Origin: an uncultured Gemmatimonadales bacterium
GTDB taxonomy: Bacteria > Gemmatimonadota > Gemmatimonadetes > Palauibacterales > Palauibacteraceae
Length of the DNA: 64,000 nucleotides
Direction: 5' to 3'
Assembly (NCBI GenBank): GCA_963807645.1
Contig: CAWECO010000003.1
Coordinates: 38,005 to 102,004 of the forward strand
The translations under genes were made by a program, and so were the position numbers. Below, one piece after another: positions 11,735 through 54,933 of this stretch (its first letter is position 1; each line of letters starts with the position of its first letter). The notes beneath the pieces are model-generated. The model saw nothing but the letters and a program-made list of their open reading frames with translations, was not told the DNA's origin and did no database searches.

Positions 11735-12641
11735 TCGATTCCTCGATGGCCAGAGCGGTGAAGACAATGTTGCAGTTGATCAGTTCCATTCTCGGTGCAA
11801 TCCTCAGCGAGGACCTTTTCAACAAGATCAAGTTCTTCGCCTTCAACAGGCGCATGCCGGAAATGCGTCAGCCAACGGAGTTTCACGAGAAGGTGTTGTG
11901 GCTGAAGATGAATCAGCGCAACTACCTCATGACTCAGTCAGCCGACAAGTACGCGGTGCGCCAGCTCGTGGCGGATGCGGTTGGGGCTGAGTACCTGGTC
12001 CCGCTGTTGGGAGTCCACGAATCGGTGGACTCTATAGACTTCTCTGAGCTACCGGAGCGCTTCGTGATCAAGGCCACTCACGGCAGTGGGTGGAACATAA
12101 TTGTCACCGATAAGTCAACGGCCGATCTAAGGAGAATCCGCCGGCAGGCTCAGGGCTTTCTCAATCGCAATTTCTTCTATCGGAGCCAGGAGTGGCAGTA
12201 TAAGAACATCAAGCCGCGCCTGCTCATTGAAGAGTATCTGTGCGGCCCCGACGGCCAAGTGGCGTGGGACTACAAGTTCTTCTGCTTCGATCGGGGAAGG
12301 CACCCGGAGATCTATCGTCCAGGTCGATGTGGACAGGTTCGGTGACCACCAACAGATCTTCATGACAAGAGACTGGCAGCCGGCGGGCTGGCGCTTCCGG
12401 GTCGGCACCCGGCCGCCGGATGTCCTTCCACCCCGTCCCGCTCAACTTGAGAGAGATGAGCCACCTCGCCAGGACTCTGGCTCGCGACCACGACCTCTGC
12501 CGGGTCGATCTCTACTTGGTGGGCGACAGGGTGTATTTCGGTGAGTTGACGTTGCATCCCTACGCTGGTTTCCGGCCGCTTGAACCTCTCGAAGCCAGTC
12601 TGCGGACAGGCTCCCTGATCCAGTTACCAGAAACCTGCTGA
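11731..12641 (+). pseudogene. TupA-like ATP-grasp enzyme (teichuronopeptide-type amino-acid ligase family), broken by two frameshifts
   Basis: Family-typical segments lie in three successive frames. The first is FHEKVLWLKMNQRN..FVIKATHGSGWNIIVTDKS..DYKFFCFD. The second is IVQVDVDRFGDHQQIFMTRDW. The third is PLNLREMSHLARTLARDHDLCRVDLYLVGDRVYFGELTLHPYAGF. Frame breaks are near 12291-12300 and 12400-12425. Confidence 0.7.
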
Positions 12642-12802
12642 GCTCCCTATCCATTGAGAATGCAAACGGCCTCGAGCCACGACTTTCGGCTGGCTGGTGC
12701 CAAGCAGGGCCACATGCTTTCGTGGCCGAAGGCAGCTGCCTCACCCTTGACCGGCAATCGAGTCGGCTTGTCCGAGCACGTTAATGAGAGTGTATTGCTC
12801 TG

Positions 12803-14788
12803 ATGTGTGGTTTCACGGGGGTCTTTGATCCATCGAACCAGTTCAGGGAGGAACAACTCCAAGAAGTAGTCGGCCGCATGGCCGATACCCTTCGTCATCG
12901 CGGCCCGGACGATCGAGGTGTCTGGGTGAACGCGGCACAAGGTATCGCCCTTGGGCACCGTCGGCTCTCGATCCTGGATTTGTCGCCGGCGGGTCATCAG
13001 CCCATGCTCTCACCGAGTGGCCGCTATTGTATAACCTACAACGGCGAGATCTATAACTATCGCGCGTTGCGAATGGAACTGGAATCGACGGGTCATAAGT
13101 TCAAGGGGCACTCCGATACCGAAGTACTGGTCGCCGCAGTGGAAGAATGGGGTGTTGGTCAAGCACTCGCTCGGATCGGGGGCATGTTTGCCTTCGGCCT
13201 GTGGGATTCGCGCGATAGAGTCCTGTATTTGGCTCGGGATCGGCTCGGAAAGAAACCGCTCTACTTCGGTCGCATCGCCGGGGGGCTGGTCTTCGGTTCT
13301 GAACTCAAGGCGCTTCGCAAGCACCCGTCCTTCAACAATGACCTTGACCGCGACGCTCTCACCTTGTTCTTGCGTCACAGCTACATTCCTGCTCCACATT
13401 CCATATATCAGGGAATCTACAAGTTGCCACCCGGGTCGTCGCTGCGAATCGACGCAAGGGCAGCGACGGAGTGTCGACGACTCGAAGACTTCTCACAGCA
13501 TCTAACCTATTTCTGGTCCGCTCGAGAGGCGGCAACAGTCGGCAAGGCGAATCTGCTCACCAACGATCCGGCAAGTGCAGTCGCTGCCCTCGACGGCGTT
13601 TTGCGGGATGCCGTTCTGTCCCGCATGGTCGCGGACGTTCCGTTGGGGGCCTTCCTCTCCGGTGGGATCGACTCGTCAACTGTGGTCGCGCTCATGCAAG
13701 CGCAGAGCACCGCGCCAGTGAAGACCTTCACTGTCGGCTTCGACGAGGAGCAGCATGACGAAGCGGCCTACGCCAGGGCCGTTGCGCACCATCTCGGTAC
13801 CGATCACACGGAGTTGTATGTCAGTCCGGAGGACGCCCTGGCGGTGATTCCGAAGTTGCCGCAACTGTACGACGAACCATTCTCCGATCCTTCGGCAATC
13901 CCTACTTACATGGTTTCGCACATGGCGCGGCAACATGTCACAGTGAGCCTCTCTGGGGATGGCGGCGATGAGCTGTTTGCCGGCTACGATCGTTACTTCT
14001 GGACACAACGACTGTGGGGCAAGATCGGCTGGCTACCCGGACCAACTCGAGCGAGCCTCGCTTGGACGATCAAACAGATCCCCGTGCCGGTCTGGAATGC
14101 CCTGTTCAAGCCGTTCACACCTGTCATTTCGGAGGCCCTCTGGTCGAGTCAACCGGGGGACAAGCTGCACAAGCTGGCTGATATCTTGGGCAGCGACGGT
14201 CGAGCAGCTCTCTATCGCGAGTTGATTTCAGTTTGGAAGGACCCTGCGTCCGTTGTGATCGGTGGGGCGGAGCCCAGCACCGTTTTGCGTGATCGCGACC
14301 AGCGGCCAGACTTTTCACAATTGATGGAAATGATGATGTTTGTCGATACAGTAAGCTACCTCCCGGACGACATCCTGGTGAAGGTCGATCGTGCATCAAT
14401 GGGAGTGAGCCTTGAGGCCCGAACGCCCCTGTTGGATCATCGCGTGGTGGAGTTTGCATGGCGGGTACCGTTGTCCATGAAGATCCGAGACGGTGCAGGG
14501 AAGTGGCTACTGCGGCAGGTGCTCTACAAGTACGTACCTAGAGGACTGGTTGACCGCCCGAAGATGGGTTTTGGCATGCCCATCGCTTCATGGTTGCGAG
14601 GTCCTCTGCGTGATTGGGCGGAAGATCTGTTGGGTGAAAGCCGACTGCGACAGGAGTGCCTCCTCCATCCAAGACCGGTAAGGGACAAGTGGGTAGAGCA
14701 CCTGAGCGGAGAACGCAATTGGCATTACTATCTATGGAGCGTGCTGATGTTTCAGGCGTGGCTACGGAGCCAGACTGCTACGGATTGA
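12803..14788 (+). CDS. asnB: asparagine synthase (glutamine-hydrolysing) family amidotransferase
   Basis: Canonical MCGFTGVFD Ntn start, [25 protein letters not shown] and the PP-loop FLSGGIDSS. In an EPS locus it is probably a sugar-carboxylate amidotransferase rather than a primary Asn synthase. Confidence 0.9.
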
Positions 14789-14838
14789 GTTGGCAACTCT
14801 CGATACCTCCCGGCGCCAGGTTCGAAGACAAGAGCTGC

Positions 14839-15936
14839 TCAACGGGCGCTGACCGACTCATAGAGCGCCGCGTAGGCTTCGGCCATCTGCTGGAGATCCC
14901 ACCCCTGGGCCCGCTTCTTCGCGAGGCGGGCTCGCGTGTGTGCGGCAGTTGGATTCTCCAGCACATTCTTCAGAGCTCGTGCGACTTCGGTGCTATTTCT
15001 GTCCTTTACGAAGAACGCCTGGCCGTCATCGAGTATCTCCCGATGCCCCGTGATCTCGGAAACGACCAGGGGACAGCCACATGCCATGGCCTCTGCAACC
15101 GTATTTGGCATTCCCTCCCAGGAGCTTACGGATACGAAGACGGACGCTCGCTTCATCCAACTCCAGAGATTTGGCAGGTATCCTCGGACGGTCACCCACG
15201 AGTCCAACCCCAGGCGCCCGACGAGGTTCTCGAGTAACTGCCGTTGATTCCCTTCTCCGCACACCAGAGCTTTCCGACCCGGTACAGCCCCGAGTTGGTG
15301 GAGCGCATCCAGCAACACGGGCCAGTTCTTCTGCGGTTCTAATCGACCAGCCGCGAGGATCAGTTCCTCTGGAGCTTTGCCACCGAAGGGCCAGCCTTCC
15401 GCTGCTCGAACCGAGCCTATCTCCTCTATTGCCAAGCCGTTTCGTATGACACATCGGCGCTGCTCAGGAACACCTTGCTTCGCCCAGTAGCGGGAGCCTG
15501 TCTCAGAGTTTGCAGCTATTGCGCTGGCGCGCCGACCCAGTCGCGCCCGAAGCCACTCGCCCCCGGGAGACGCGTAGACCGGGCCCGAACAGCGCTCACC
15601 CAGGATCCAAGGGACATCGGTAGTCAGTGAGGCAAGCCCACCAGCTAAGTCCATTAGGGGCAGCCAGGTGTGGCATACATCAGGTCTCAAGGCCCGTATC
15701 GACTGGCGCAGCCACCATATCAGACGCGGATCGTGACGCCCGCCTTGGGGGAGAGGTGTCAACGTTGCCCCTGATCGCTTGAGGCGCTCGAGGTATGGAC
15801 CCTCAAGACGGGCAACCGCCACGTGCACATCATGGCCCAGATCCACAAGACCTCCAGCTAGGTACGACAGCTGCCTTTCCGCACCACCTCCGTGCATCGA
15901 CCCGATACAGTGCAGGATTCGGAGCGGCCGATTCAC
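14839..15936 (-). CDS. glycosyltransferase family 4
   Basis: LRILHCIGSMHGGGAERQLSYLAGGL and SSWEGMPNTVAEAMACGCPLVVSEITGHREIL. AGGAG lies 5 nt before GTG 15936. The ORF-track start at 16008 is an upstream extension. Confidence 0.85.
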   Translation of the reverse strand: MNRPLRILHCIGSMHGGGAERQLSYLAGGLVDLGHDVHVAVARLEGPYLERLKRSGATLTPLPQGGRHDPRLIWWLRQSIRALRPDVCHTWLPLMDLAGGLASLTTDVPWILGERCSGPVYASPGGEWLRARLGRRASAIAANSETGSRYWAKQGVPEQRRCVIRNGLAIEEIGSVRAAEGWPFGGKAPEELILAAGRLEPQKNWPVLLDALHQLGAVPGRKALVCGEGNQRQLLENLVGRLGLDSWVTVRGYLPNLWSWMKRASVFVSVSSWEGMPNTVAEAMACGCPLVVSEITGHREILDDGQAFFVKDRNSTEVARALKNVLENPTAAHTRARLAKKRAQGWDLQQMAEAYAALYESVSAR

Positions 15937-16332
15937 GATAACTCCTGCATAGCGGAACGTGACAGAGAAGCAAGCACACCAACCGTCAACACAGTACCCT
16001 GATTGCAATGGGCGACTCCATATGACCCATTTGAGGTGAAGCCGTCAATTGCGATAGTTAAAAACCGTGGAGGCAGCCTTCGTGTGCCCGGTCGACCGCA
16101 TGCCGGCCGATTCGCCGTCGCTCGGTCGAATCGACTTCCGAGAATCGGTCGACCTGGGAGCCGGGCCTTGGTACTTTAACTCCCAAGTTCATCAAGTCGT
16201 ACGGCAATTGTGGCAACTATGCAACAGGACCATCTTGTCGTCATTCACAGAGCGGCCCGACGCTTCTTCGGACCGCTTGGGACAACGCCAGCGTGACTAG
16301 CGTAAGAGCAGTAACTGCAATTTGTTAGGGTC

Positions 16333-16650
16333 TTGATGCGGACGAGTTGCCGCGGCTTCTCACCGAGGGCTGGATGCCGGCCTCGGCGGGCACCGTCGTC
16401 TTGAAGCGCCGGCCCCGCACCGCGCCCCGAAGACCCACTTGCGCAGGATCTCGTTCACCCGCCGAAGTTCACGATTCTCACGCTCCAGCTCGCGGATGCG
16501 CTCACGTTCCCGTCGTCAGGCGCGGCCGGCGTCCCGCATCCCGCTCGGCCTGCCGCACCCACCGGCGCAACGTCTCCGCCGTGCACCCGATCTTCTCCGA
16601 AATGGATCGGATCGCCGCCCACTGCGACTCGTACTCCCGTCAACGCACCT
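16333..16650 (-). mobile_element. IS3-family remnant B: 5-prime-truncated orfA fused to a short orfB fragment
   Basis: Minus-strand translation gives EYESQWAAIRSISEKIGCTAETLRRWVRQAERDAGRRP..RIRELERENRELRRVNEILRK, with a frame break. Then comes ..GVVRGRRFKTTVPAEAG, a fragment from the middle of orfB. No intact transposase remains. Confidence 0.6.
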
Positions 16651-16940
16651 CTGTCTTCCGTTTCGGACTTAGAAGTTTCTCCGCAACCACTTCCTCCAGG
16701 AACAGCTTGTCCAGCCTCAGGGTAGCCACTGTGCGCCTCGGCGATCCGTTCTACCCGGTCCAGTTCCTCGAGCCGGCGTGCCTCACCTTCTTCAGGCTCC
16801 CATAATCCCGCGCCACAGTTGACAATGCTACTCGGTGATCCCCAGTTGCCGCAGTCTATGCGCGACCCGCTTGGTTCCGGTAACCCACGCTTCCGCCTGC
16901 CACAACATCCCGGCGATCTTCTCCAAGTGCTTCCTCTCCG
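16651..16940 (-). mobile_element. IS3-family remnant A: decayed HTH_Tnp_1-type orfA, no orfB
   Basis: The minus strand reads ..LEKIAGMLWQAEAWVTGTKRVAHRLRQLGITE*HCQLWRGIMG.., then ARRLEELDRVERIAEA.., then ..TLRLDKLFLEEVVAEKLLSPKRK across shifted frames. There is an in-frame TAG. It abuts remnant B. Confidence 0.5.
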
Positions 16941-17061
16941 TCTGAGACCTCCTTCAGCCATTTGAAGACCCGCCTGCTCGCTTCAGGCAATCCCGACTAT
17001 GTTGCAGATCAGGCAAGTACTTGCACAGCGGGGCGCGTTCGCAGACCATGTAAGACGTTGT

Positions 17062-17069
17062 TGTATAAT
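17062..17069 (+). promoter_or_regulatory. candidate extended -10 promoter element (TGTATAAT)
   Basis: A perfect TGnTATAAT sits in a short AT-rich patch between the IS remnant and the lyase gene, about 430 nt upstream of the predicted start. The applicability of the E. coli consensus to this organism is unknown. Confidence 0.25.
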
Positions 17070-17495
17070 ATATTAAGGGCCTCGCCGAGCTTGGCACGGG
17101 TCTAGCACTACCTCCAGCCGGATTTGAAGGGAAACTCAAACAGTCTGCTGATCAGGGCAAACCCGTGCGAAAGCCGGGGACGCAAAGCCACGAGGCTAAC
17201 GTCTTCCCACGAGGAAGGCCACGCCAGTCGGGTTGCCTGCGGATCGTTCCGCAGCATCTCAGGCAGCACCGGAGCTAACTCCGGTCTGAAGTGGTTCGGC
17301 GTCTTTGCGCATCAGCGAGAACAATGCGCGATCAGAGTGAGGACGCTGACCATGGCTGCGAAGACGAACACCGTTTGGCTCTCCCGGTATACCTTGCGCT
17401 GCATTCGCGTTGCAGCGACTGTCGGTGCGGCGCGCTGCACGGCACCGGCCGGTCGCTCGCTTGTTCGTCGAGGCAACCCTACCAGAGGGAGCGGC

Positions 17496-19589
17496 ATGGT
17501 TGGTCTGGTTCTCGCAATCTGCACGGCAGCGTGCTCTCAGGGCGTGGCTGGTCCGGCTGGCGACGATCTTGAGCCAGCATCCGTGGAGCTCGAGTACTAC
17601 GACTTTCAGCTCATCGCGGGTACGTCGGACGAGATCCAAGCCACAGTGAAGAACAGGCATGGAAAGCCATTGCCCGACGCAGCCGTCCGGTGGTCGTCAG
17701 GCGACCACACGATCGCATCGGTCGAGGAAAGTGCGATTGGTAGGCAGCGGGCCCGGGTCAAGGGCGAGGCGAAAGCCTCGACGAGGCTGACGGCCGCAGC
17801 GGGCGGAAAGACTGGTGTGGCAAACCTAACCGTGGTCGACTCTTCGGCGGTTCAAGGGATCGCAGTCACGGTACCGTCCCTATCGAACCTAGAAATAGTG
17901 ATCGGGCAGGAGACCCAAATTGAGGCGACTGGCCTGTCCAAGGATGGTCAAATCATACTCGGCGCCTCGTATTCGTGGTCTTCATCGAATCCCGAGATCG
18001 TAGAAGTCTCCCCTCAGGGGATGCTCGAAGCTCGATCCGCTGGCCAGGCCACGATCACCGCGACCTATATGGATGTACGGGAAGAACTCCAACTGTCGGT
18101 GAGACCGCAGCAGAGCTCGTCGATCCCCGCGTTCCCGCCCGCCGAGGCCGAAGGAGGCGGCATTGTTCCAAGTGCTGAAGGTTACGGTGCGCTTGCTCTC
18201 AACCGATGCAGATCGTTACCGCTCGTAATCCACCGGGTCACAAACACGGCGAGCGACGGTCCGGGGAGCTATTCAGATGTCATCACGAACCGACTTTCGA
18301 ACAGCTCATACGACATTGTCCTGTTCGATACCGGCGGTACGATCGCCTACCGTCAGGCACCCACGATCCAGAAGTCCTGTTTGTATATAGCAGGTCAGAC
18401 CGCCCCGGGCGGGGGTATACAGCTCCGACGGGCTGAGGGCAGTACATCGACAAAGGGGCTGTTCCAGATTGCACGGCGCGGCAATATATCCAATGTGGTT
18501 GTCAGGTACCTGCGCATTCGCCCGGGCATCGATGCTGGGCGCGCGTTCACCGTCCAGAGTGGTACGAATATTGTGCTCGACCACATCTCTGCGGAATTCG
18601 GCAGCAGCAAGTCGGAGTTCTTCACCCACAATGTGGAAGAACGTGCAGAACCGCTGAGGAACGTTACCCTGCAGTGGTCCATGATAGCCGCGACGCTGGC
18701 GCGGCAAGCGGGAAGCTCCAGGGGAGGGAGCTTGGGCCTGCTTGTGTCGGGCGCTGAGAACGGTGGAGCACCTCTGGAAGGCGTTTCAATACACCACAAC
18801 CTGTTCGCTCACAACTCGCACAGAAACCCCCGCGTGGGTCACCCGGCGCGAAGCGTGGAGATCGCAGGCAACACTGTGTATAACTGGGGGGCGCGCGTCG
18901 GTTTAACCACGCACGACGTCTCGGTGGACTACATCGGCAACTATTATAAGAAAGGACCGGGATCGGGTACGAGAGTGCTTCTACACCAGCTCACCCTCAA
19001 CCATCCGCAACGACTCCCGGGATCTGATCCGGAATTCCTCTTCCTGAGTGGCAACGAGCTTCACCCTGGTTGGGCTGAATCTGCGCAGGATCAGTATTCG
19101 TTGATCGAGTGGAACTATTATGACGTGCACAACTACGAGGAACCGGAGACCCAGACGTGGGAGCCCGCCTCGGAGCATATGGGCTCTTTCGAGAATTCTA
19201 GGCAGACTTCGCCAGCGATCCCTGTCAGCTTGGGCAGTGCCGCTGAGGCACACCAGAACGTGCTGTCCGAGGTTGGGGCGAACAGGAGACTGACGTGCGA
19301 AGGGAAATGGGTGGACGCACGTGACGAGTTGGACGCTCGGCTGATCTCCGACGTGGTCAGCGGGAAGGGCCCATCTCGGGATGAGGAAAAAGACGAACCG
19401 GAGGACTTCGGTGGTTACCCGGGTCTGGGAACGGGTATCGGCTGCGTGGATACTGACGGCGACGGAATGCCGGACGCTTTTGAGACCAGGTACGGACTCG
19501 ATCCCGAGCGCAGGGACGGGGGCTTTGACGACGATGGAGATGGTTACCTGAATGTGGAGGAGTACCTGAACGGTACGATCCCTCGCTGA
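17496..19589 (+). CDS. secreted lipoprotein: Big_2 Ig-like domains + pectate-lyase-like (PL1-type) right-handed beta-helix + C-terminal Ca-binding TSP3-like repeats
   Basis: GAGGGAG SD precedes ATG 17496, and the lipobox is LAICTAAC. Two Big_2-like segments (IQATVKN..VRWSSGDHTIASV and IEATGLS..YSWSSSNPEIVEVS). The lyase motif is VSIHHNLFAHNSHRNPRVG..GNTVYNWG. The tail is DTDGDGMPDAFETRYGLDPERRDGGFDDDGDGYLNVEEYLNGT. The ORF is open from 17124. Confidence 0.75.
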   Translation: MVGLVLAICTAACSQGVAGPAGDDLEPASVELEYYDFQLIAGTSDEIQATVKNRHGKPLPDAAVRWSSGDHTIASVEESAIGRQRARVKGEAKASTRLTAAAGGKTGVANLTVVDSSAVQGIAVTVPSLSNLEIVIGQETQIEATGLSKDGQIILGASYSWSSSNPEIVEVSPQGMLEARSAGQATITATYMDVREELQLSVRPQQSSSIPAFPPAEAEGGGIVPSAEGYGALALNRCRSLPLVIHRVTNTASDGPGSYSDVITNRLSNSSYDIVLFDTGGTIAYRQAPTIQKSCLYIAGQTAPGGGIQLRRAEGSTSTKGLFQIARRGNISNVVVRYLRIRPGIDAGRAFTVQSGTNIVLDHISAEFGSSKSEFFTHNVEERAEPLRNVTLQWSMIAATLARQAGSSRGGSLGLLVSGAENGGAPLEGVSIHHNLFAHNSHRNPRVGHPARSVEIAGNTVYNWGARVGLTTHDVSVDYIGNYYKKGPGSGTRVLLHQLTLNHPQRLPGSDPEFLFLSGNELHPGWAESAQDQYSLIEWNYYDVHNYEEPETQTWEPASEHMGSFENSRQTSPAIPVSLGSAAEAHQNVLSEVGANRRLTCEGKWVDARDELDARLISDVVSGKGPSRDEEKDEPEDFGGYPGLGTGIGCVDTDGDGMPDAFETRYGLDPERRDGGFDDDGDGYLNVEEYLNGTIPR

Positions 19590-19590
19590 G

Positions 19591-19609
19591 GTCGTGGCTG
19601 TGCCACGAC
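19591..19609 (+). terminator. stem-loop directly after the lyase stop codon
   Basis: GTCGTGGC-tgt-GCCACGAC is a perfect 8-bp stem starting 2 nt after the TGA. There is no U-tract, so its function as an intrinsic terminator is uncertain. Confidence 0.35.
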
Positions 19610-19892
19610 ATGCGCTTGCCCGGACAAGCTCGGGTCGTGAACGCGCCTCCGGGCCTACCGGACGAATACTGCGAACACGCTGCCATTTCGTCGTACCGTC
19701 CTTCTAGAATCTCGGGATCGACGCCCGACTGCGAGCACCCCTCAGATTCCGAGAAGTGCAGGCGCCGAGACGGATACAAGTTGCAGCTTGCCTTTGGAAG
19801 ATCGCTGATCGTCGTATTCCACGGGAGCTTGAGCCAACTGAGCACAGGGGGACTGGTGTCTTGGGTGCGTGGCTCGTACACCAGAGGCGATA

Positions 19893-21149
19893 CTGGAGTT
19901 GACCCTTCTCCGCGGACAGTTTCTGGTTTGAGACTCAAGCCGCGGAATCGCGTCTCCCTTCGTAGTTGAGCGGAGACAGGTGACCGAGGGCCGAGTGCCT
20001 GCGGTGCGGGTTGTACCAGGCCTCGATGAAGTCGAACACGGCCATCCTCGCCTCGGCCTGGTTGCGGAACCGTTACCTCTCCAGAGAGCTCACACTCGAG
20101 CGTGGCGAAGAAGCTCTCGCACATCGCGTTGTCGTAGGCATCGCCGACCGAGCCCATGGAGGGCGCACGCCGGCCTGCTTGCAGCGCAGTCCGAAGGCGA
20201 TCGAGGTGTACTGCGTGCCCTGGTCCGAGTGGTGGATCATCGAGTCGGGATTCCGCTGCCAGAGGGCCATGTTCAGGGCCTGGAGCACGAGCGTCGGTCC
20301 TCAGGTGCGTCTCCATCGACCAGCCGACGACTCGGCGGCTCCAGGCATCGACGACGACCGCCAGGTACAGGAAGCCGCTCCAGGTCGGAACGTAGGTGAT
20401 GTCAGCCACCCACAGCTGATCGGGCCGATCCGCCGCGAAGTCCCGGTCCACCAGGTCCGGGGCCGGGCGCGCGTCCTTGTCCCTCTTCGTCGTGCGCCAC
20501 TTCTTCCGTCTGCGTCGCACCCTGCAGGCCGTCGAGAGCCGTGAGCCGGGTGACCCTCTTGTGGTTCACCCGCCACCCTTCGTCCCTGAGCTCGGCGTAG
20601 ATCCGCGGCCGCCCGTAGGTCTCCCGGCTGAATGTATGGATTTCTCGCATCCGCTCGAGCAGACGCTGGTTCGCGACCTCCCGCACCGACGGCGGCCGAC
20701 CCCGCCACGCGTAGTAGCCGCTGGGGGAGACGCCCAGCACGCGACACATCGTACGAATGGGATAGTCGGCCCGGTGCTCGCTCGCGAATCGGTACGCTTC
20801 AAGGGTACCGTCCCCGTCTCCTGCGCGAACCAGACCGCGGCTTCTTTTAGGATCTCACGCTCGATCTTGAGCTGCTTGTTCTCCCGGCGCAGTCGCCGGA
20901 GCTCTTCCCGCTCCGCGCTCGTCAGGTTGTCGGTGCGACGCCCCTGATCCAGGTCGGCCTGCCGGACCCAGATGTGGATCGTCTGCGCCGAGGGTTCGAA
21001 TTCACGCGACAGTGACTCCGGCGTTCGGCCCGATCGGACCAGCGCCACCATCTGCTCGCGAAACTCCGGCGGGTACGGCGGATTGTGTTCCTGGCATCGT
21101 GGACTCCTCTCTCCCAAGAGATCGGGTGTCCACGGAACGGTCCATACCA
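19893..21149 (-). mobile_element. IS3-family insertion sequence, roughly full length but decayed (orfA/orfB pseudogenes)
   Basis: orfA: PPYPPEFREQMVALVRSGRTPESLSREFEPSAQTIHIWVRQADLDQGRR..ELRRLRRENKQLKIEREILKEAAVWFAQE. orfB pieces lie in shifting frames: YRFASEHRADYPIRTMCRVLGVSPSGYYAWR..; DRDFAADRPDQLWVADITYVPTWSGFLYLAVVVDAWSRRVVGW; HHSDQGTQYTS; SMGSVGDAYDNAMCESFFATLECEL; RFRNQAEARMAVFDFIEAWYNPHRRHSALGHLSPLNYE. Besides the normal orfA/orfB -1 offset there are at least 4 more frame breaks, an out-of-frame ATG and an in-frame TAA (LLER*RFRNQ). Imperfect terminal inverted repeats begin TGGAGTTGACC.. and TGGTATGGACC... Confidence 0.8.
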
Positions 21150-21426
21150 TCTCGCAACCACCAGATTGGGAGACTATGGCACTGAAGCAACAGTTGCTTG
21201 AGTAGACATCACGGTTCATCTTCACGTTGGCCCCAAATATGGCAATTGCACCTGGCGAGCCAAGCAGCACCCCCTCCTGCTGACCGATTGCCTGCGCATT
21301 TGTCTTCCCGGCGAGCCATGCTCGGGGCAGCTAGAGATCACGACGCAGACCTCGGGGGACGGCTGCAACCGGTAGGTAGACTTAAGGGCTGACGATTCCT
21401 TTCTGAAATTCATTCTTTAGTGAACA

Positions 21427-22383
21427 ATGAATCTAAAAAGCTATTTACCCAGCATCAAACCATACATTCACGGTGATTATAACTATAAGTTTACGGTGTT
21501 CATCCCCGTGTATAATGGAGAAAAGACCATTATTCGGGCATTAGAGTCCATTGAGGCACAGACTTTTAGGGATTTCGAGGTTCTGATCATTAATGACGGT
21601 TCGACAAATGCCACTGGCAAAGTCGTTCGAGACTACATGAGTGAATCAAGTTTGGACATCAGATTCATAGACAATCCTGAAAATATCAATAGGCGTGGCA
21701 CTGTCTACCAGGGTGTTTCTTTGGCTCAAGGAGAGTTTTTTCTCATACATGATGCAGACGATAGTTGCTTCCCAGATGCTTTGAGAGTTTTCGCAGACGC
21801 CTACGAGAGTATTCCTGAAGAACTCAGACATAGAGTAAGTGGTGTGACTGCACACTGTGTTGACCAAGACGGGAACCTAGTTGGGACGAGGTTGACTACT
21901 AACCCATTGTATTGCAATGCGTTGGAGTTCAGGTATTACCACAAGATCATTGGCGAAAAGTGGGGCTTCACAAAAACCGACATTCTAAAGCAGATCTCAA
22001 TAGATGAGTCACTCTTCGAACGAGGTCGGATTCCTGACGGGTATTTGTGGCTTACAATAGCCAAAGAAGGCTACATAACGAAGTATATAGACGATGTAAC
22101 AAGAGTCTATTTCACAGATACCGAGAACAGCTTATCGAAACTAGAGTACAGTCGAAAAGCTTTCGGTATGGCAATCTACTCCATCCTATTTCTGAACTAC
22201 TTCCATCGTGATTATCTTCTGAGAATACCCAAAGTATTCATAAGAAGACTCGTATCTATACTGAAAGCTTCGAACTACTTGGAGTATACAATGTCAACAT
22301 ATTTCAACTCAATTGAAAGCAGGATCATGAAGCTACTGTTCTTAGTACTGTGGCCATTGCGTAAGATCGCCCAATACGCATAG
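21427..22383 (+). CDS. glycosyltransferase family 2, compositionally foreign (low GC)
   Basis: KFTVFIPVYNGEKTIIRALESIEAQTFRDFEVLIINDGSTNATG and LIHDADD (DxD). Hand counts of two 60-nt lines give 33% and 40% GC, against 75% for a line just downstream (22441-22500). Confidence 0.85.
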   Translation: MNLKSYLPSIKPYIHGDYNYKFTVFIPVYNGEKTIIRALESIEAQTFRDFEVLIINDGSTNATGKVVRDYMSESSLDIRFIDNPENINRRGTVYQGVSLAQGEFFLIHDADDSCFPDALRVFADAYESIPEELRHRVSGVTAHCVDQDGNLVGTRLTTNPLYCNALEFRYYHKIIGEKWGFTKTDILKQISIDESLFERGRIPDGYLWLTIAKEGYITKYIDDVTRVYFTDTENSLSKLEYSRKAFGMAIYSILFLNYFHRDYLLRIPKVFIRRLVSILKASNYLEYTMSTYFNSIESRIMKLLFLVLWPLRKIAQYA

Positions 22384-23440
22384 GCGATTCGATCAATAGC
22401 GGCTGGCCACCCTCGTGCCGCTGCGCCGCGTGCACCGGCACGGCTACCACCGGTGCCGCCGCAGACCTCTCGTTTCCGCAGACGACTGGGGCCCGGCCCG
22501 TCTCCGCACCTGCTCGCCGGACTGCTCCCCTTGGATCCCGACGTATCTCGTCCCACTGGGCCTCTCTGCTCGTCCGGATCCACCACGCGCTTCCCCTCGT
22601 CTGCTCCCGATGCGGCTGATCGCCGTTCGCACCGACCTACTACTCAAACAGGGATGGGGACTTCGAAGTGTGCGTGTCGGAATCGCCAGGATCTTCCACC
22701 AAGGTCACAAGCAATACCGTAGTGGACGGCTGGCCGGACTGGGGGCCGTAGGACACCTATCGAGTTAAGATGCCAGAGAAGCGCTCGGTTCGCACTGGGC
22801 GCTTTCGCGCTGTACCTCGGTTTTGTTGTCTTGCTTTGGCACGCGGTTTCAAGTGTGAGGCGGAGCGCGAAGTGGGTGCCTAGCTTCCTCTGGCTGGACG
22901 AGGATTGTGGAGCCTACGTGGCGGACGGGAGTCGTACTATGGACTCTGAAGACTGAGGGCGAGTAACGCTCTTCCCGCTGCCGGCCCTCGGATTCACGAG
23001 GTGGCAGTCCGTTAAGAGATCCCGGAATAGACCCTCGGAATCAAGACGATCGCAGACTATTCGCACTTCATCGTTCAGAGTCGCTCGTTGGATCGTGCGG
23101 CGATTGTGGCAACCGCGCAACGGTACCATCTTGTTGGTACCGTCCGGGCGCACCGATGCTGGAGCGAGACGGATTGGAGGATGAGGTCTCGGCGGGCCTG
23201 CAGCTAGTAGTTACAGGACCTTAGAGTCTTCTACCGGGGCTTCTGGTGCCGTAGTATGGACCTTGGACAGGGGGATTAGGCTTGACTCTTGCGTGGCGGC
23301 CTATCGACGAGCGACCGGCAAACAGTCACACTGGGTGGTTGAATGGAGATTGCGCCTGTGAGCAGTGAGTTCGAGGGAAACGCCGCGCTGGCGGGCGGAC
23401 TAATCCCTCGGATTCCTTTGACCTTTGGCATTACTTCGGC

Positions 23441-25033
23441 GTGCTGCGCCGGCGGTGGTGGCTCATCGCGAGCACCACCCTTGTGGCCCTTGGCATGGCG
23501 TGGTGGTCGCAACGCAGTGAGTTACCAAGTTACACGGCGGAAACGCTGCTCCAGCAGGTCGCGGACCAGGCGTCCGCGTCGCCATGGGGCTTCATGATCG
23601 ACCAGGGTATGGGGGCGCACCTCGATATCATCCGGAGTGCAGAGGTGCTTACGCCGGTGGTGGACTCACTGGGGCTGCAGATGCGCCTACGCAACTACCA
23701 GGAGCGGCGGAGTGAGATCATCGGACAGTTCGCGGCTGACCGTGCGGCGGACCAGTCTTCCTACGAGATCAAAAAGGAAGGATCGGATGTGGTCCTCGTT
23801 CACACTCGTTCAGGCAGGGAGTTGACGAGAGCCCCGGCAAGCTCTGTCCTTGAGGGCCCCGGCTTTTCGCTTCGAGTGGACGATCTCACCGTTATCGACG
23901 AGCCACTGCAGTTTCAGGTAAGGAACTTCGACGTTGCCACGGAGTCGCTCGAGCGAAAGCTCCGCATCGAGCAAGGAACGGGCCCTGACTTGGTCTGGAT
24001 TCGGTTCTCGGACCCGGATCCCCAGTTCGCTGCTGACGTTGTAAATAGCGTGGCGCAGGCTTACCAGAGACACCGGGCGCAGTCTGCCCGGGAGACGGCG
24101 GGACGCCGTCGGCAGTTTGTAGCAGTTCAGTTGGCCGGTATTGCCGATTCTCTTCACTTGGCGCAGCAGACTGTGATCGACTACCAGACTCAGACCCTCT
24201 ATGATCCGAACACGGAGGGAAGCGCGGTCGTTTCAGAACTCCTGCAGATGGATAACGCCCTTCGCGAATTGCGTTACCAGGAGACCCTCCTTTCGAGCTT
24301 GGTAGCCGGTTTGCAGACGAGTGGGGAGAACGATCAGGCCTTGCAGCAGATCATGGCGCTCGGGGCCGATCTCGTGCCGCAGGGTCCCCAGCTGAGCCGG
24401 AACCTCCAGGATCTCCAACTCAGGCGTGCCGAGCTGACCGCGTCCAGGTTCGGCGCTACGTCGCAGGATCCGCAAGTTCAGGTCGTGGACTCGTTGATCG
24501 TGGAGACCAAGATGCAGGCGCGGCTGGCGGCCGAGCAGGCGTTGCAACTCTTGAGGGATCGAATCAGACAGGATGAGCTCCGATACGGACAGCTCAGCGG
24601 CAGGGCAGGTAGCCTTCCCGTGCGGACCGCCGAGTATGCTCGCCTCGAAGACCGGGTAGAGGCCATTCGGCGCATCTTCGACCAGCTGGTGGCTCGCTAC
24701 TTCGAGGCCCAGATCGCTGAGGGAGTGGAAGTGGGGGACATCGATGTCGTGGCCCCGGCCGCCGTGCCGGTGTGGCCCGATCCTTCACTCAAGAGGATGA
24801 ACCTGATCATCGGTGCCATGGCAGGGTTCCTCCTCGGTTTGGTAGGCGCGCTGGTAATCGATCAGGCAGATTCGAGAATCCGGCGGCCGACGGATATCAA
24901 GAACGCTGCGAACCTCGAGGTTGTGGGCACGATTCCCAATATCCAGGGGATCGCGACGGGTTCGGTCGCGGCCGAGATCGGCAAGGATGCTTTCAGAGCG
25001 CTACGCACGCACCTTACGCTTCGCGCTTCTTAA
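23441..25033 (+). CDS. polysaccharide co-polymerase (Wzz/GumC-type chain-length determinant) = N-terminal part of a Wzc-like protein
   Basis: RRRWWLIASTTLVALGMAWW TM1, PSYTAETLLQ, a long coiled-coil periplasmic region and TM2 MNLIIGAMAGFLLGLVGALVI. It ends inside the FRALRT-LRFAL kinase-entry motif. The conserved DSFDLWHYFG lies upstream of the GTG with no in-frame start. An ATG at 23343 in another frame suggests a further frame break near 23395-23405. Confidence 0.8.
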   Translation: MLRRRWWLIASTTLVALGMAWWSQRSELPSYTAETLLQQVADQASASPWGFMIDQGMGAHLDIIRSAEVLTPVVDSLGLQMRLRNYQERRSEIIGQFAADRAADQSSYEIKKEGSDVVLVHTRSGRELTRAPASSVLEGPGFSLRVDDLTVIDEPLQFQVRNFDVATESLERKLRIEQGTGPDLVWIRFSDPDPQFAADVVNSVAQAYQRHRAQSARETAGRRRQFVAVQLAGIADSLHLAQQTVIDYQTQTLYDPNTEGSAVVSELLQMDNALRELRYQETLLSSLVAGLQTSGENDQALQQIMALGADLVPQGPQLSRNLQDLQLRRAELTASRFGATSQDPQVQVVDSLIVETKMQARLAAEQALQLLRDRIRQDELRYGQLSGRAGSLPVRTAEYARLEDRVEAIRRIFDQLVARYFEAQIAEGVEVGDIDVVAPAAVPVWPDPSLKRMNLIIGAMAGFLLGLVGALVIDQADSRIRRPTDIKNAANLEVVGTIPNIQGIATGSVAAEIGKDAFRALRTHLTLRAS

Positions 25034-25679
25034 GGACCAGCCCAGGCTGATTGCTGTGACGAGTGCCACTCCCAGGGACGGGAAGAGCACCGTCGCGACG
25101 AACCTGGCTCTTACCCTGGCGGACCAGGGAAGTCGGGTCCTTGTCGTTGACGCAGACTTGAGGAGACCCCAGGTCCATACCGCCTTTGGCCTGGAACAGT
25201 CTCCTGGCATATCCGACGTCCTGACCGGTGTCGCCTCAATCGATGAGGCCATTCAAGGACTGTCGGGTAGCCCGACGCTGTCCCTGCTGGCATGCGGGAC
25301 GGCAGTCGAGCGACCGACCGAATTGATCGGCAACGAGGGCTTCGAGGCACTCATGACCGAGCTGAGGACGCGCTTCGACTACATAGTGGTGGACACTCCG
25401 CCTCTCTTGGCCGTCACTGACGCGGCTCTGGTAGGAGCGGTTGCGGATGGAACGCTTGTCGTCGTTCGTGCCAACAAGACGGACCTGGGGGCGCTAAGCA
25501 CGGCTGTGAGCCAGCTACGGCGTCTACGCGTCCCGCTCCTGGGCGTGGTCATGAATGGAGTCCCGACCGGAAGGTCGTCAGGCTACTCGTACACTCCTGA
25601 ATACTATCCGAGCTACGCTGGGGAAGCAGGTGCGTCTCCGGAGGTCGAGCGAAAGCGTCCGCTTCTGAAGTCCGGCTGA
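24987..25679 (+). CDS. BY-kinase (CpsD/Wzc-type protein-tyrosine kinase) domain
   Basis: Walker A IAVTSATPRDGKSTVATNLA, A-prime VLVVDADLRRP, Walker B YIVVDTPPLLAVTDA and a Tyr-rich tail GYSYTPEYYPSYAG. It overlaps the co-polymerase ORF in the +1 frame. The join around 25005-25015 reads ..FRALRTH|LRFALLKDQPRLIAVTS. Confidence 0.8.
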   Translation: MLSERYARTLRFALLKDQPRLIAVTSATPRDGKSTVATNLALTLADQGSRVLVVDADLRRPQVHTAFGLEQSPGISDVLTGVASIDEAIQGLSGSPTLSLLACGTAVERPTELIGNEGFEALMTELRTRFDYIVVDTPPLLAVTDAALVGAVADGTLVVVRANKTDLGALSTAVSQLRRLRVPLLGVVMNGVPTGRSSGYSYTPEYYPSYAGEAGASPEVERKRPLLKSG

Positions 25680-31514: not shown

Positions 31515-32117
31515 GTGCAGAAAACGCAGTATACGGGGTCCGAGTCCGGGGTGGAACGGCTGAAACTGCCCAGACCGACGCTGGTCCTCTTGGCGGGAGT
31601 CGCCGGCTCGGGAAAATCGAGCGTCGCCCGCGGGCTCCTGGAACATCTGCAGGCAGTCTACCTGGACAACAACTTCATTGCCGACGCTTTCTTTCCAGAT
31701 ACCCGCCGGGGCGTCGACTACCGACAATTTAGGCCGCGCTTGTACAGGGCACTGTATAGGATTGCCGGCGAGAATCTCAATGTGGGCAACAGCGTGCTCC
31801 TGGACGCTCCCCACATCCGCCAGAGTCGGAGCGCTCTCTGGTACCGTTCGATGCTGTTGCGCACCAAGGAAGCCGCTGCAGATCTCGTCATGATCAGGTG
31901 TGTGGCGTCGGAGGGAGAAATCAGGCGGCGCCTGGAGTCCCGCGGAGAGGCAAGAGATCGCTGGAAGCTGCAGAACTGGGATGCTCACGTTCACTCGCAG
32001 CCGATCAGGGGGACGCTTCCGCATCCCCACCTGGATCTACCGACGGAGCGACCTATTGAGGAGACCGTACAGGAGGCTCTCAGCTACATTCTGGCCAGAG
32101 CGGCCACGGTCAATTAG
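31515..32117 (+). CDS. P-loop NTPase / small-molecule-kinase-like protein (AAA_33-like)
   Basis: Walker A LLAGVAGSGKSSVARGL followed by VYLDNNF.. and VLLDAPH, about 200 aa. It converges on and overlaps by 4 nt the stop of the priming transferase gene. Confidence 0.6.
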   Translation: MQKTQYTGSESGVERLKLPRPTLVLLAGVAGSGKSSVARGLLEHLQAVYLDNNFIADAFFPDTRRGVDYRQFRPRLYRALYRIAGENLNVGNSVLLDAPHIRQSRSALWYRSMLLRTKEAAADLVMIRCVASEGEIRRRLESRGEARDRWKLQNWDAHVHSQPIRGTLPHPHLDLPTERPIEETVQEALSYILARAATVN

Positions 32118-32914
32118 CGAGCACCTCTGCACCTGAGGACGACCGGAACGGTCCGGGCAAGGACGGCCACGTCCAACCAGAAGGAACGCCGCGCAATATA
32201 CTCGAGGTCGCGCTCCAGTTTGCGCTCGACCTCCGCCAACGTTCCACCATAGCCGCATGTGATCTGAGCAAGCCCAGTAATCCCGGGCCGCATCCTCTGT
32301 CGCTCGGGGAATTCCTCGAGCTGCTCTCTGAGGCGGGCCAAAATGTCAGGCTGCTCCGGCCGTGGGCCTACGATGTTCATGTCGCCCGTGATCACGTTGA
32401 ACAGCTGGGGTGTCTCGTCCAAACGGTGGGCTCGAAGCACTCGGCCCAACGGGGTGATTCGGCAGTCATTCTGCCGTGTCCACACCTGATGCGAAGGTGG
32501 GCCCGCTTCCCGGGACATCGTCCTGAACTTATAGATCGTGAACGGCCGGCCGCCGAGATCCCGCCGACGTCGGTCTCCGATCGTCGATCTGCCGCTATCG
32601 CGTCGGTCGAGGCCAATCCTCCGCTGCGTGTAAAGTACGGGGCCGCGTGAGCTCAACTTCACGGCCAGCGCAACTAGAATCATCAACGGTGCAGCGACCG
32701 CCAGGGCCAAAGCGGCGGCGATCACATTGCCCGCACGGGATGATCCCCGGGGAGTCTGCTTTGTTGCGGTTCGCCCCTCTTCCACCAGGGGATTGGCGAT
32801 CGGTTGCCGGCGGGTCGCTGAGCTCGAATGGTGGTTGCGGCGATGTCGAATCCGCGGTGAAGGCTCAATCGCCCCGCGTCCCGCATCTGCTTCTTGAAGC
32901 TGTGACACCTGCAC
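32114..32914 (-). CDS. undecaprenyl-phosphate sugar-1-phosphate transferase (Bac_transf family, priming enzyme)
   Basis: One TM helix (AAALALAVAAPLMILVALAV), then SSRGPVLYTQRRIGL, RPFTIYKFRTM, DETPQLFNVITGDMNIVGPRP and MRPGITGLAQI. Confidence 0.85.
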   Translation of the reverse strand: MQVSQLQEADAGRGAIEPSPRIRHRRNHHSSSATRRQPIANPLVEEGRTATKQTPRGSSRAGNVIAAALALAVAAPLMILVALAVKLSSRGPVLYTQRRIGLDRRDSGRSTIGDRRRRDLGGRPFTIYKFRTMSREAGPPSHQVWTRQNDCRITPLGRVLRAHRLDETPQLFNVITGDMNIVGPRPEQPDILARLREQLEEFPERQRMRPGITGLAQITCGYGGTLAEVERKLERDLEYIARRSFWLDVAVLARTVPVVLRCRGAR

Positions 32915-54913: not shown

Positions 54914-54933
54914 GGACTCGAAGCTGGTCGGTA

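What the first reader, a model, noticed from the sequence alone, without database searches (positions are those of the whole stretch)
21395..22383. Gene-sized low-GC island: a foreign GT2 glycosyltransferase inserted beside an IS3 element
GC drops from about 65-75% to about 33-40% (hand counts of 60-nt lines) exactly over one intact 318-aa GT2 ORF plus about 30 nt of leader. It returns to about 75% within a few bases of the stop codon. The cassette starts 278 nt from the end of the decayed IS3 copy and is followed by about 1 kb with no convincing gene. Such a sharp, un-ameliorated boundary indicates recent acquisition from a low-GC donor. The ORF is one of the few in this region with no frame damage, suggesting it is under selection and may have re-programmed the repeat-unit structure.
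Basis: seen in the sequence. Interest (0 to 1): 0.65.

Follow-up and report, generated by a model that had tools for sequence, protein, structure and literature searches.

The report
Foreign sugar-transferase gene in slime locus
A marine-sediment Gemmatimonadota bacterium carries, inside its exopolysaccharide gene cluster, one intact glycosyltransferase gene that came from a Flavobacteriaceae-like (Bacteroidota) donor. This is a real but ordinary case of cross-phylum gene transfer into a surface-sugar locus, and it is older than its sharp edges suggest.

Summary
One gene-sized island (21373-22398) has 41% GC in a 63% GC window and is the strongest compositional outlier in the 64 kb. It holds one intact 318-aa GT2 (GT-A fold) glycosyltransferase with a 54-nt AT-rich leader.

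It is not an assembly chimera. An independent 3.2-kb short-read contig spans both junctions, and short contigs from two studies cross each junction.

- **Host:** a marine-sediment Gemmatimonadota, close to the Palauibacterales genus Benthicola.
- **Donor:** all close GT2 relatives are Flavobacteriaceae-type genes in 27-38% GC contigs. The window gene groups with a Maribacter orientalis clade (94/100 bootstrap).
- **Absence in relatives:** the syntenic sites of three related Gemmatimonadota loci lack the gene.

- **"Un-ameliorated, recent":** the nearest relative is only 59% identical. GC3 (48%) and Arg/Lys usage lie between donor clade and host. Alleles 90-99% identical occur in other sediments.
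- **"One of the few undamaged ORFs":** the frameshifts in neighbouring TupA and Wzc are absent from near-identical short-read contigs, so they look like consensus errors.
- **IS3 as vehicle:** the adjacent IS3 has host-like GC and no demonstrable role in delivering the gene.

Purifying selection is nonetheless supported (pN/pS about 0.2).

This is an ordinary kind of event, and interest is low to moderate.

The parts
21373..22398 (.). Low-GC island (41.3% GC in a 63% GC background)
   Evidence: Maximum-likelihood change points, and the lowest GC window of the 64 kb. GC profile.
21427..22383 (+). Intact 318-aa GT2 (GT-A fold) glycosyltransferase of Flavobacteriaceae-like origin
   Evidence: PF00535, 88 bits. 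All invariant family residues are kept, including D57 and D109-x-D111-D112. AlphaFold2 pLDDT 92.7. Foldseek matches TarS, K4CP, RmlT and TarP at E 1e-14. Homologues and tree.
21373..21426 (+). AT-rich leader that came with the gene; no Shine-Dalgarno-like motif
   Evidence: Read from the sequence. The change point is at 21373.
19900..21144 (-). IS3-family element (orfA HTH_Tnp_1, orfB rve) with host-like GC of about 66% and several frame breaks
   Evidence: Pfam hits. Ends were read by eye: TGACCCTTCTCCGCGGACA and TGGACCGTTCCGTGGACA, imperfect. The automatic repeat search found no clean terminal repeats. A 1-nt insertion in orfA codon 7 is shared with the independent contig L001. Indels at 20295 and 20514 are in the window only.
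21145..21372 (.). Spacer of host-like GC (about 58-60%) between the IS3 end and the island
   Evidence: GC profile. Identical in L001; no other match.
22399..23085 (.). High-GC non-coding stretch of unknown origin downstream of the GT2
   Evidence: No Pfam, Rfam or coding-phase signal and no match in related loci. No unusual secondary structure, z = 0.02.
23086..23440 (+). Conserved leader of the Wzc gene, including a 68-nt element (23093-23160) that is duplicated at 16197-16264
   Evidence: blastn to L083 1977-2230, part of a 74% identical alignment. Direct repeat D1.
23405..25679 (+). Wzc-type chain-length regulator and tyrosine autokinase of the host EPS cluster, split in the window by a 1-nt insertion at 25015-25016
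   Evidence: Homologues are about 780 aa and fused. tblastn shows a frame switch at 25014-25015. Short-read contigs from X1 and X10 lack the extra base.
17146..19589 (+). c-di-GMP-I riboswitch (17146-17240) followed by a secreted Big_1/Big_2 gene (about 17496-19589). This module is inverted relative to related locus L083 and lies immediately upstream of the IS3.
   Evidence: Rfam RF01051, 67.4 bits, and 61.8 bits in L083. tblastn 40% identity to the L083 gene, in the opposite orientation.

Best explanation
**What it is.** The island is a single glycosyltransferase gene acquired by horizontal transfer across phyla. The donor was a Flavobacteriaceae-related member of Bacteroidota. The recipient is a marine-sediment Gemmatimonadota near the Palauibacterales genus Benthicola.

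**Where it sits.** It lies in the variable stretch between wzy and wzc of a Wzx/Wzy-type exopolysaccharide cluster. It is next to an IS3-family element and to a riboswitch-controlled module that has been rearranged. In related loci the wzy-to-wzc stretch is short or differently filled.

**What it does (inferred).**
- The protein is an intact, metal-dependent GT-A (GT2) enzyme with four C-terminal helices. These probably hold it at the membrane.
- It most likely adds one sugar from a nucleotide-sugar to the undecaprenyl-pyrophosphate-linked repeat unit.
- That would alter the polymer the cluster makes.

**Shown:**
- foreign composition;
- donor clade;
- real junctions;
- absence at the same site in three relatives;
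- intact catalytic motifs;
- purifying selection among alleles.

**Inferred:**
- the enzyme's acceptor and sugar;
- that it is expressed;
- that rearrangement at this IS-rich spot created the insertion site.

**Timing.** The transfer is not very recent. Either the gene has been partly ameliorated towards host composition, or the direct donor was an unsampled Bacteroidota of about 42-45% GC.
For: **Composition**
- The island is 41.3% GC against 62-63% in the flanks, with change points 54 nt before the start codon and 15 nt after the stop.

**Host**
- Mfd is 82-92% identical to Gemmatimonadota MAGs, including Ca. Benthicola marisminoris.
- Wzc hits are named Palauibacterales.
- That order's MAGs have 52.8-71.7% GC (PMC10469786).

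**Donor**
- All 21 named hits among the top 113 are Bacteroidota, 20 of them Flavobacteriaceae.
- 14 close homologues sit in 27-40% GC contigs, with gene GC within about 0.1 of their flanks.
- In a neighbour-joining tree the window gene groups with P0002, P0003 (Maribacter orientalis) and P0004 in 94 of 100 bootstraps.
- The cluster's native GT2 (3278-4270) is only 27% identical over 90 aa.

**Not a chimera**
- Logan contig L001 (3,161 bp) is 99.15% identical to the window and spans both junctions.
- Short contigs cross the left junction (X3, 21361-21605) and the right junction (X2, 22258-22419, and X15 from another study, 22300-22448).

**Absent in relatives**
- L083, L084 and L085 have Wzc directly after Wzy or after the Big_2 gene, with no IS3 and no such GT2.

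**Function**
- Pfam hit, conserved motifs, a model with pLDDT 92.7 and GT-A structural neighbours.

**Constraint**
- 20 synonymous against 15 non-synonymous distinct codon changes among alleles from six runs, giving pN/pS of about 0.21.

**Intermediate composition**
- GC3 is 47.6% against 16-33% in close homologues.
- R/(K+R) is 0.55 against a median of 0.22.
- Lineage-specific changes gain G/A/R/P residues 12 to 4 and lose F/Y/M/I/N/K residues 21 to 11.
Against: - No expression data: no RNA run holds the gene.
- No sigma-70-like promoter on the + strand and no Shine-Dalgarno motif upstream.
- No flanking direct or inverted repeats, integrase or attC-like site explains the insertion.
- The excess of GC3 over what GC1+GC2 predict within the family is only z = 1.6. 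Amelioration is therefore not proven against an intermediate-GC donor.
- The related loci used for the absence test are only 66-80% identical in Wzc. Closer relatives were not found.
- The diverged alleles (90-98%) come from 151-253-nt contigs without flanks, so their hosts are unknown.
- The window allele has N61 where the family, and all other reads, have D61.
Confidence: 0.85

Rival explanations
1. Very recent, un-ameliorated acquisition. The gene arrived so recently that it still has donor composition, which would make the donor a Bacteroidota of about 42% GC that has not yet been sampled.
For: - The edges are sharp.
- The gene is found only in near-identical host strains in the protein database: one cluster with 2 members.
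- The GC3 excess over the family trend is not significant, z = 1.6.
- The 54-nt leader is still about 33% GC.
Against: - No relative above 59% protein identity exists among 5.8 billion clustered proteins.
- All three sister genes have 28-31% GC and GC3 of 21-26%.
- The window protein is the most Arg- and GARP-rich of 113 family members.
- Alleles down to 90% nucleotide identity, at similar or slightly higher GC, exist in other studies. That implies a substantial history at this composition.
Confidence: 0.3
2. Assembly chimera: a flavobacterial gene wrongly joined into a Gemmatimonadota contig.
For: The sample is a mixed sediment community that contains both kinds of organism. The window does contain consensus errors.
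Against: - An independently assembled short-read contig (L001) spans both junctions at 99.9% identity outside the IS.
- Separate contigs from runs in two different studies cross the junctions without loose ends.
- The insert is exactly gene-sized, and its composition is unlike any sampled flavobacterial homologue.
Confidence: 0.02
3. A native gene whose low GC reflects local mutational or selective bias in polysaccharide loci, not transfer.
For: - Glycan-cluster genes are often AT-shifted. The Wzy-TupA-AsnB stretch here is 58% GC against 63-66% elsewhere.
- Flavobacterial homologues are also slightly below their own flanks.
Against: - The shift here is 21 points. The largest seen in 34 other loci is 10.7.
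- There are no Gemmatimonadota orthologues, and the gene nests inside a Flavobacteriaceae clade.
- The native GT2 of the same cluster has normal GC and is unrelated beyond the fold.
Confidence: 0.03
4. The gene was delivered by a mobile vehicle: the neighbouring IS3 acting as a composite transposon, an integron cassette, or a serotype-converting phage.
For: - An IS3-family element lies 229 nt upstream.
- An IS3-like fragment lies at 16476-16581.
- The IS lacks matching 3-bp target duplications by my reading of its ends. The adjacent module is inverted relative to L083. Both suggest IS-mediated rearrangement.
Against: - The IS has about 66% GC, which is host-like, so it did not travel with the gene from a low-GC donor.
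- The two IS-like sequences flank the Big_2 module, not the GT2.
- There is no attC-like structure after the stop and no integrase.
- The best relative in the viral collection is 37% identical over part of the protein.
Confidence: 0.15

Closest known systems
Flavobacteriaceae capsule/O-antigen-cluster GT2 enzymes (e.g. Maribacter orientalis 'glycosyltransferase involved in cell wall biosynthesis', P0003; metagenomic P0002 and P0004)
   Same: - Same family and length.
- 52-59% protein identity over 98-99% of the query.
- All invariant residues are shared, and the clade has 94/100 bootstrap support.
   Different: - Those genes have 28-31% GC in low-GC genomes. They sit among UDP-sugar dehydrogenase, epimerase and MBOAT genes.
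- The window gene has 41.6% GC and is Arg-enriched. It stands alone in a 63% GC Gemmatimonadota cluster.
- None of these enzymes has been characterised.
Low-GC glycosyltransferase, wzx and wzy genes in O-antigen and capsule loci of Enterobacteriaceae (the classical rfb-cluster observation; from general knowledge)
   Same: An atypically AT-rich sugar-transferase gene inside a surface-polysaccharide locus, next to IS elements. It is read as horizontal acquisition that diversifies the polymer.
   Different: Here the event is a single gene, the donor phylum can be named, and the recipient is an uncultured sediment phylum. No serotype data exist.
PglI (GalNAc5-diNAcBac-PP-undecaprenol beta-1,3-glucosyltransferase) and EpsE-type GT2 enzymes
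   Same: GT2 enzymes with a GT-A fold that add a branch sugar to a lipid-linked oligosaccharide. The PglI model aligns over residues 21-305, and one homologue is labelled pglI by its source.
   Different: Scores are far below the family cutoffs: 57.5 against 500 bits for PglI and 59.4 against 450 for EpsE. It works like them but is not a member.
Structurally solved GT-A enzymes TarS, TarP, RmlT, K4CP, WrtF and SpsA
   Same: Same catalytic fold. Foldseek E 1e-14 to 1e-11, TM-score 0.5-0.6. Profile hits down to E 6e-28.
   Different: Only 12-22% identity. The acceptors differ (teichoic acids, chondroitin). The four-helix C-terminal tail is not shared.

Membership tests
Glycosyltransferase family 2 (Pfam PF00535, GT-A fold) | Sequence match to the family model above its curated cutoff | tested here: met
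   88.1 bits against a cutoff of 23.3, residues 23-129.
Glycosyltransferase family 2 (Pfam PF00535, GT-A fold) | GT-A Rossmann-like fold | tested here: met
   AlphaFold2 model with pLDDT 92.7 and pTM 0.89. Foldseek probability 1.00 to TarS, K4CP, RmlT, TarP and SpsA.
Glycosyltransferase family 2 (Pfam PF00535, GT-A fold) | Nucleotide-binding Asp and a DxD metal-binding motif | tested here: met
   D57 and D109-A-D111-D112 are invariant across 26 family members, including the window protein. N61 replaces a D that is at least 90% conserved. Other reads show D.
Glycosyltransferase family 2 (Pfam PF00535, GT-A fold) | Inverting transfer of a sugar from a nucleotide-sugar donor | not testable with these tools
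   Requires an enzyme assay.
Horizontally acquired gene (genomic islet) | Composition atypical for the host genome | tested here: met
   41.6% against 63.2% GC, about 6 SD. Codon-position GC and amino-acid usage are unlike 13 host genes.
Horizontally acquired gene (genomic islet) | Phylogeny incongruent with the host | tested here: met
   The gene nests in a Flavobacteriaceae clade with 94/100 bootstrap. There is no Gemmatimonadota orthologue.
Horizontally acquired gene (genomic islet) | Absent from the syntenic site in relatives | tested here: met
   L083, L084 and L085 lack it. These relatives are only 66-80% identical in Wzc.
Horizontally acquired gene (genomic islet) | Donor-like (un-ameliorated) composition, indicating recent arrival | tested here: not met
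   GC3 is 47.6% against 16-33% in close homologues. R/(K+R) is 0.55 against a maximum of 0.40.
IS3-family insertion sequence (the neighbouring element) | orfA with an HTH domain and orfB with a DDE (rve) integrase domain | tested here: met
   PF01527, PF00665 and, in L001, PF13276.
IS3-family insertion sequence (the neighbouring element) | Terminal inverted repeats (TG...CA) with 3-4 bp target duplications | tested here: inconclusive
   Imperfect repeats were read by eye at 19900 and 21144 and were not found by the gapless search. The flanking triplets AGT and TAC do not match.
Composite transposon carrying the GT2 | Two IS copies bracketing the cargo gene | tested here: not met
   Only one IS lies beside the GT2. 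The IS-like fragment at 16476-16581 lies beyond the Big_2 module.
Integron gene cassette | An attC recombination site after the ORF and an integrase nearby | tested here: not met
   The 156 nt after the stop fold no better than shuffles, z = 0.02. No integrase appears among the annotated neighbours.
Phage-borne serotype-converting glycosyltransferase | Close relatives in phage genomes or a prophage context | tested here: not met
   The best hit in 2.9 million viral contigs is 37% identical over residues 21-228. There are no phage genes nearby.

The most novel reading that the evidence does not exclude
The gene could be a free-moving, single-gene "glycan-editing" module circulating among unrelated sediment bacteria. 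On this reading the cloud of 90-99% identical alleles in sediment, marsh, estuary and soil metagenomes would sit in different host phyla. Its intermediate GC and its AT-rich leader without a Shine-Dalgarno motif would be a compromise that lets it be expressed in both low-GC and high-GC hosts.
Probability: 0.1. Interest if true: 0.55.

Novelty: new member of a known kind. Interest (0 to 1): 0.3.

Why it matters
It is a clean, well-bounded example of cross-phylum transfer (Bacteroidota to Gemmatimonadota) into a surface-polysaccharide locus of an uncultured but cosmopolitan marine-sediment lineage. It shows that these organisms diversify their exopolysaccharide in the way well-studied pathogens diversify O-antigens.

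There are two practical lessons.
- A sharp compositional edge does not mean recent arrival.
- The apparent pseudogenes around the island are probably consensus errors in the assembly. Claims of gene decay in this contig need read-level checks.

Tried and rejected
- **RNA evidence:** none could be found.
- **Promoter and terminator scan:** nothing on the + strand upstream of the GT2, and counts were no higher than in shuffles.
- **The 22399-23092 stretch:** no Pfam hit in nine stop-free translations, no Rfam hit, no coding-phase signal, and no similarity to any fetched locus apart from L001.
- **attC or terminator-like structure after the stop:** rejected, z = 0.02.
- **Repeats flanking the island:** only a 6-nt CGATTC match seen by eye, which is compatible with chance. 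No repeat family brackets the island.
- **Second IS copy:** tblastx of the IS against the window found none. Only a 55-nt, 75% identical fragment turned up.
- **GC3 versus GC1+GC2 regression within the family, as a test for amelioration:** the residual was +0.125, z = 1.6, which is not decisive.
- **Shine-Dalgarno usage in host genes:** mixed, and confounded by uncertain start codons.
- **Viral collection scan:** no close relative.
- **Flanks of the diverged alleles:** contigs of 151-253 nt carry no flanks and show no loose ends.
- **First tree attempt:** it timed out and was redone with a faster distance method.
- **My own correction:** I first noted the 21607 difference as synonymous. It is N61D.
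Full report
**1. The observation**

A sliding GC profile shows a single trough between about 21.4 and 22.4 kb.
- The ORF 21427-22383 (+, 318 aa) has 41.6% GC. GC1, GC2 and GC3 are 42.6, 34.5 and 47.6%. The 64-kb window has 63.2% GC.
- A two-change-point likelihood fit puts the edges at 21373 and 22398. GC is 62.1% to the left, 41.3% inside and 62.8% to the right.
- The lowest 957-nt window of the whole sequence starts at 21395 (40.8% GC). That is about 6 SD below the mean. The lowest window elsewhere is 56.7%.

The feature is therefore real, gene-sized and unique in the window. It includes a 54-nt AT-rich leader and 15 nt after the stop codon. The rise to 73-75% immediately after the stop is correct.

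**2. What the gene is**

- Pfam places it in GT2: PF00535, 88 bits against a cutoff of 23.3.
- An alignment with 25 homologues shows that every invariant residue is retained. These include D57 and D109-x-D111-D112.
- An AlphaFold2 model built from that alignment is confident (pLDDT 92.7, pTM 0.89). It shows a GT-A core followed by four long C-terminal helices, residues 241-315.
- Foldseek finds TarS, chondroitin polymerase K4CP, RmlT, TarP, WrtF and SpsA at E 1e-14 to 1e-11. A profile search of PDB sequences agrees.
- NCBIfam equivalog models (EpsE, PglI, WcaA and others) match only far below their cutoffs.

It is thus a GT2 of undefined specificity. It works like the branch-adding or chain-extending transferases that act on lipid-linked repeat units. 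That last step is an inference.

**3. The host and the locus**

- The Mfd protein at 51641-55093 (-) is 82-92% identical to Gemmatimonadota MAGs. These include Ca. Benthicola marisminoris.
- Benthicola is a genus of the marine order Palauibacterales. That order's MAGs have 52.8-71.7% GC (PMC10469786).

The surroundings form an exopolysaccharide cluster. In order:
- GT4, a native GT2 (3278-4270), GT4, Poly_export, three GT4 genes, and Wzy (10232-11734);
- a TupA-like ATP-grasp gene, AsnB, and a GT4 on the minus strand;
- a Big_1/Big_2 secreted protein (about 17496-19589);
- the IS3 element, the low-GC GT2, and Wzc (23405-25679);
- an AsnB-like gene, a PD40 protein, a kinase, and the priming transferase (32114-32914, -).

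The native GT2 is only 27% identical to the island's GT2 over 90 residues. The island gene is therefore not a diverged paralogue.

**4. Where the gene came from**

- Of 1,311 database relatives, the only near-identical protein (P0001) is encoded on contig L001. The next best is 59% identical (P0002), followed by Maribacter orientalis at 55%.
- All 21 taxonomically named hits among the top 113 are Bacteroidota, 20 of them Flavobacteriaceae.
- A scan of metagenome contigs returned 80 loci. The close homologues (38-46% identity) lie in contigs of 27-38% GC, and their gene GC matches their flanks. The largest gene-minus-flank deficit in 34 loci is 10.7 points, against 21 here.
- High-GC family members exist, but they are distant (30-34% identity) and match their own flanks.
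- A neighbour-joining tree of 64 sequences groups the window protein with P0002, P0003 (M. orientalis) and P0004 in 94 of 100 bootstraps. Its branch is no longer than theirs.
- In those flavobacteria the gene sits among UDP-sugar dehydrogenase, epimerase and MBOAT genes of a capsule-type cluster.

**5. Not a chimera**

- A Logan contig from run ERR12040029 (L001, 3,161 bp) was assembled independently from short reads. It aligns to window 20122-23283 at 99.15% identity and crosses both junctions.
- Of its 27 differences, 23 fall inside the multicopy IS (20184-20785). Only four lie in the remaining 2.5 kb.
- Separate short contigs cross the left junction (run X3, 21361-21605) and the right junction (run X2, 22258-22419), each with 0 mismatches.
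- A run from a different study crosses the right junction with two substitutions (X15, 22300-22448).

**6. Absence in relatives, and local rearrangement**

- In loci whose Wzc is 66-68% identical (L084, L085), Wzy is followed directly by Wzc.
- The closest locus is L083, with Wzc 80% identical. There the Big_2 gene and its c-di-GMP riboswitch are divergent from Wzc, across a 940-nt intergenic region.
- DNA similarity between L083 and the window resumes at window 23086.
- Relative to L083, the window has the riboswitch-Big_2 module inverted. Three segments lie between that module and the Wzc leader:
  - the IS3;
  - the GT2 island;
  - 687 nt of unassignable high-GC DNA.
- A 68-nt piece of the Wzc leader is duplicated at 16197-16264. 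A short IS3-like fragment lies at 16476-16581.
- By my reading of its ends, the IS3 (about 19900-21144, -) lacks matching target duplications.

All this marks the site as a rearrangement hotspot. Nothing, however, links the IS mechanistically to the GT2. The IS has about 66% GC, like the host. No repeats bracket the island. There is no attC-like structure. No close relative occurs in viral contigs.

**7. How recent?**

The gene is compositionally intermediate, not donor-like.

| Measure | Window GT2 | Close homologues | Host genes |
|---|---|---|---|
| Gene GC | 41.6% | 25-34% (14 genes with DNA) | about 58-66% |
| GC3 | 47.6% | 16-33% (three sister genes: 21-26%) | 63-80% |
| R/(K+R) | 0.55 | median 0.22, maximum 0.40 (112 homologues) | 0.70-0.91 |
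| G+A+R+P fraction | 0.198 | median 0.142, maximum 0.180 | 0.29-0.40 |

- At sites where the three sisters agree, the window lineage gained G/A/R/P residues 12 times and lost them 4 times. It lost F/Y/M/I/N/K residues 21 times and gained them 11 times.
- Within the family, GC3 exceeds the value predicted from GC1+GC2 by 0.125. That is only 1.6 residual SD.
- An unsampled donor of about 42-45% GC therefore cannot be excluded.
- Fragments of the gene occur in runs from ten studies of sediment, marsh, estuary and soil. Their identity ranges from 99.5% down to 90%, at similar or slightly higher GC.

Either reading means the gene's history at this composition is substantial. "Un-ameliorated, recent" is not supported. 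A sharp edge is expected at any stage before full equilibration.

**8. Selection and the "frame damage" argument**

That premise fails.
- Most neighbours are full length compared with relatives.
- The Wzc frameshift at 25015-25016 is replaced in short-read contigs of runs X1 and X10 by a substitution plus one fewer base. That restores ...ALRTHLRFALLKDQP....
- A 503-nt contig from run X2 matches the TupA region with only three differences. It has a G>C change at 12306 and lacks one base at each of the two TupA frameshift sites, 12314 and 12453.
- A substitution next to an indel, in otherwise identical sequence, is typical of consensus error. That attribution is an inference.
- The window's A at 21607 gives N61, where D is at least 90% conserved in the family. 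It is G in L001, X2 and X7.

Selection on the GT2 is nevertheless supported directly. Distinct codon changes among alleles from six runs are 20 synonymous to 15 non-synonymous. With 205 synonymous and 749 non-synonymous sites, pN/pS is about 0.21. The amino-acid changes are mostly conservative.

**9. What remains unknown**

- Expression is untested. No RNA run holds the gene. There is no recognisable promoter and no Shine-Dalgarno motif.
- The sugar and the acceptor are unknown. The effect on the polymer is inferred only.
- The insertion mechanism is unresolved.

**10. Verdict**

This is a real, well-supported cross-phylum acquisition of a functional-looking GT2 into the variable part of a Gemmatimonadota exopolysaccharide locus. 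As a phenomenon it is ordinary: foreign, AT-rich transferase genes in surface-polysaccharide loci are a classical finding. It is wrong or unsupported on recency, on the frame-damage argument and on the role of the IS3.

Noticed in passing
window 17146-17240 (+); L083 1572-1665 (-): A c-di-GMP-I riboswitch (RF01051; 67.4 and 61.8 bits against a gathering score of 35) sits upstream of the secreted Big_1/Big_2 protein gene inside the EPS cluster. It is conserved in a related locus. This suggests c-di-GMP control of a polysaccharide-associated secreted protein in Gemmatimonadota.
   Followed up: partly
window 12306-12314, 12453 (TupA-like gene 11731-12641) and 25015-25016 (Wzc): The window has single-base insertions, two of them next to a substitution, that split TupA into three frames and Wzc into two. 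Near-identical short-read contigs (X2; X1 and X10) lack them. They are probably consensus errors in the 452-kb source contig, so other apparent pseudogenes in this contig need read-level checks.
   Followed up: yes
window 21607: The window allele encodes N61, where the family has an Asp that is at least 90% conserved. L001, X2 and X7 all read G (Asp). It is either a rare variant or another consensus error.
   Followed up: partly
window 16197-16264 and 23093-23160; L083 1991-2023: A 68-nt direct repeat (72% identical) whose core is conserved upstream of Wzc in a related locus. It may be a promoter or operator element of the EPS operon, duplicated during the local rearrangement.
   Followed up: no
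window 17143-19589 compared with L083 2-1668: The riboswitch plus Big_2 gene module is inverted relative to the closest related locus. It is flanked by an IS3-like fragment (16476-16581) and the IS3 element (19900-21144).
   Followed up: partly
window 11731-23440: Relative to loci L084 and L085, where Wzy abuts Wzc, the window carries about 11.7 kb of extra genes between them: TupA, AsnB, GT4, riboswitch-Big_2, IS3 and GT2. The 10-15 kb stretch is 58% GC against 63-66% elsewhere, so more of this stretch may be accessory.
   Followed up: no
window 20184-20785 compared with L001: 23 of the 27 differences between the window and the independent contig fall inside the IS3. This points to several diverged IS copies in the population, or to gene conversion between them. 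Loose ends in several runs show the IS in other contexts.
   Followed up: no
window 21744-22332, in runs X8 and X11-X14: Short contigs carry GT2 alleles only 90-98% identical to the window, in sediment, marsh, estuary and soil metagenomes from other studies. Their hosts are unknown.
   Followed up: partly
window 43336-44343 (-): A 335-aa ORF matches only the first 47 of 136 positions of the MoaC profile. It may be another frame break or a fused or misread gene.
   Followed up: no
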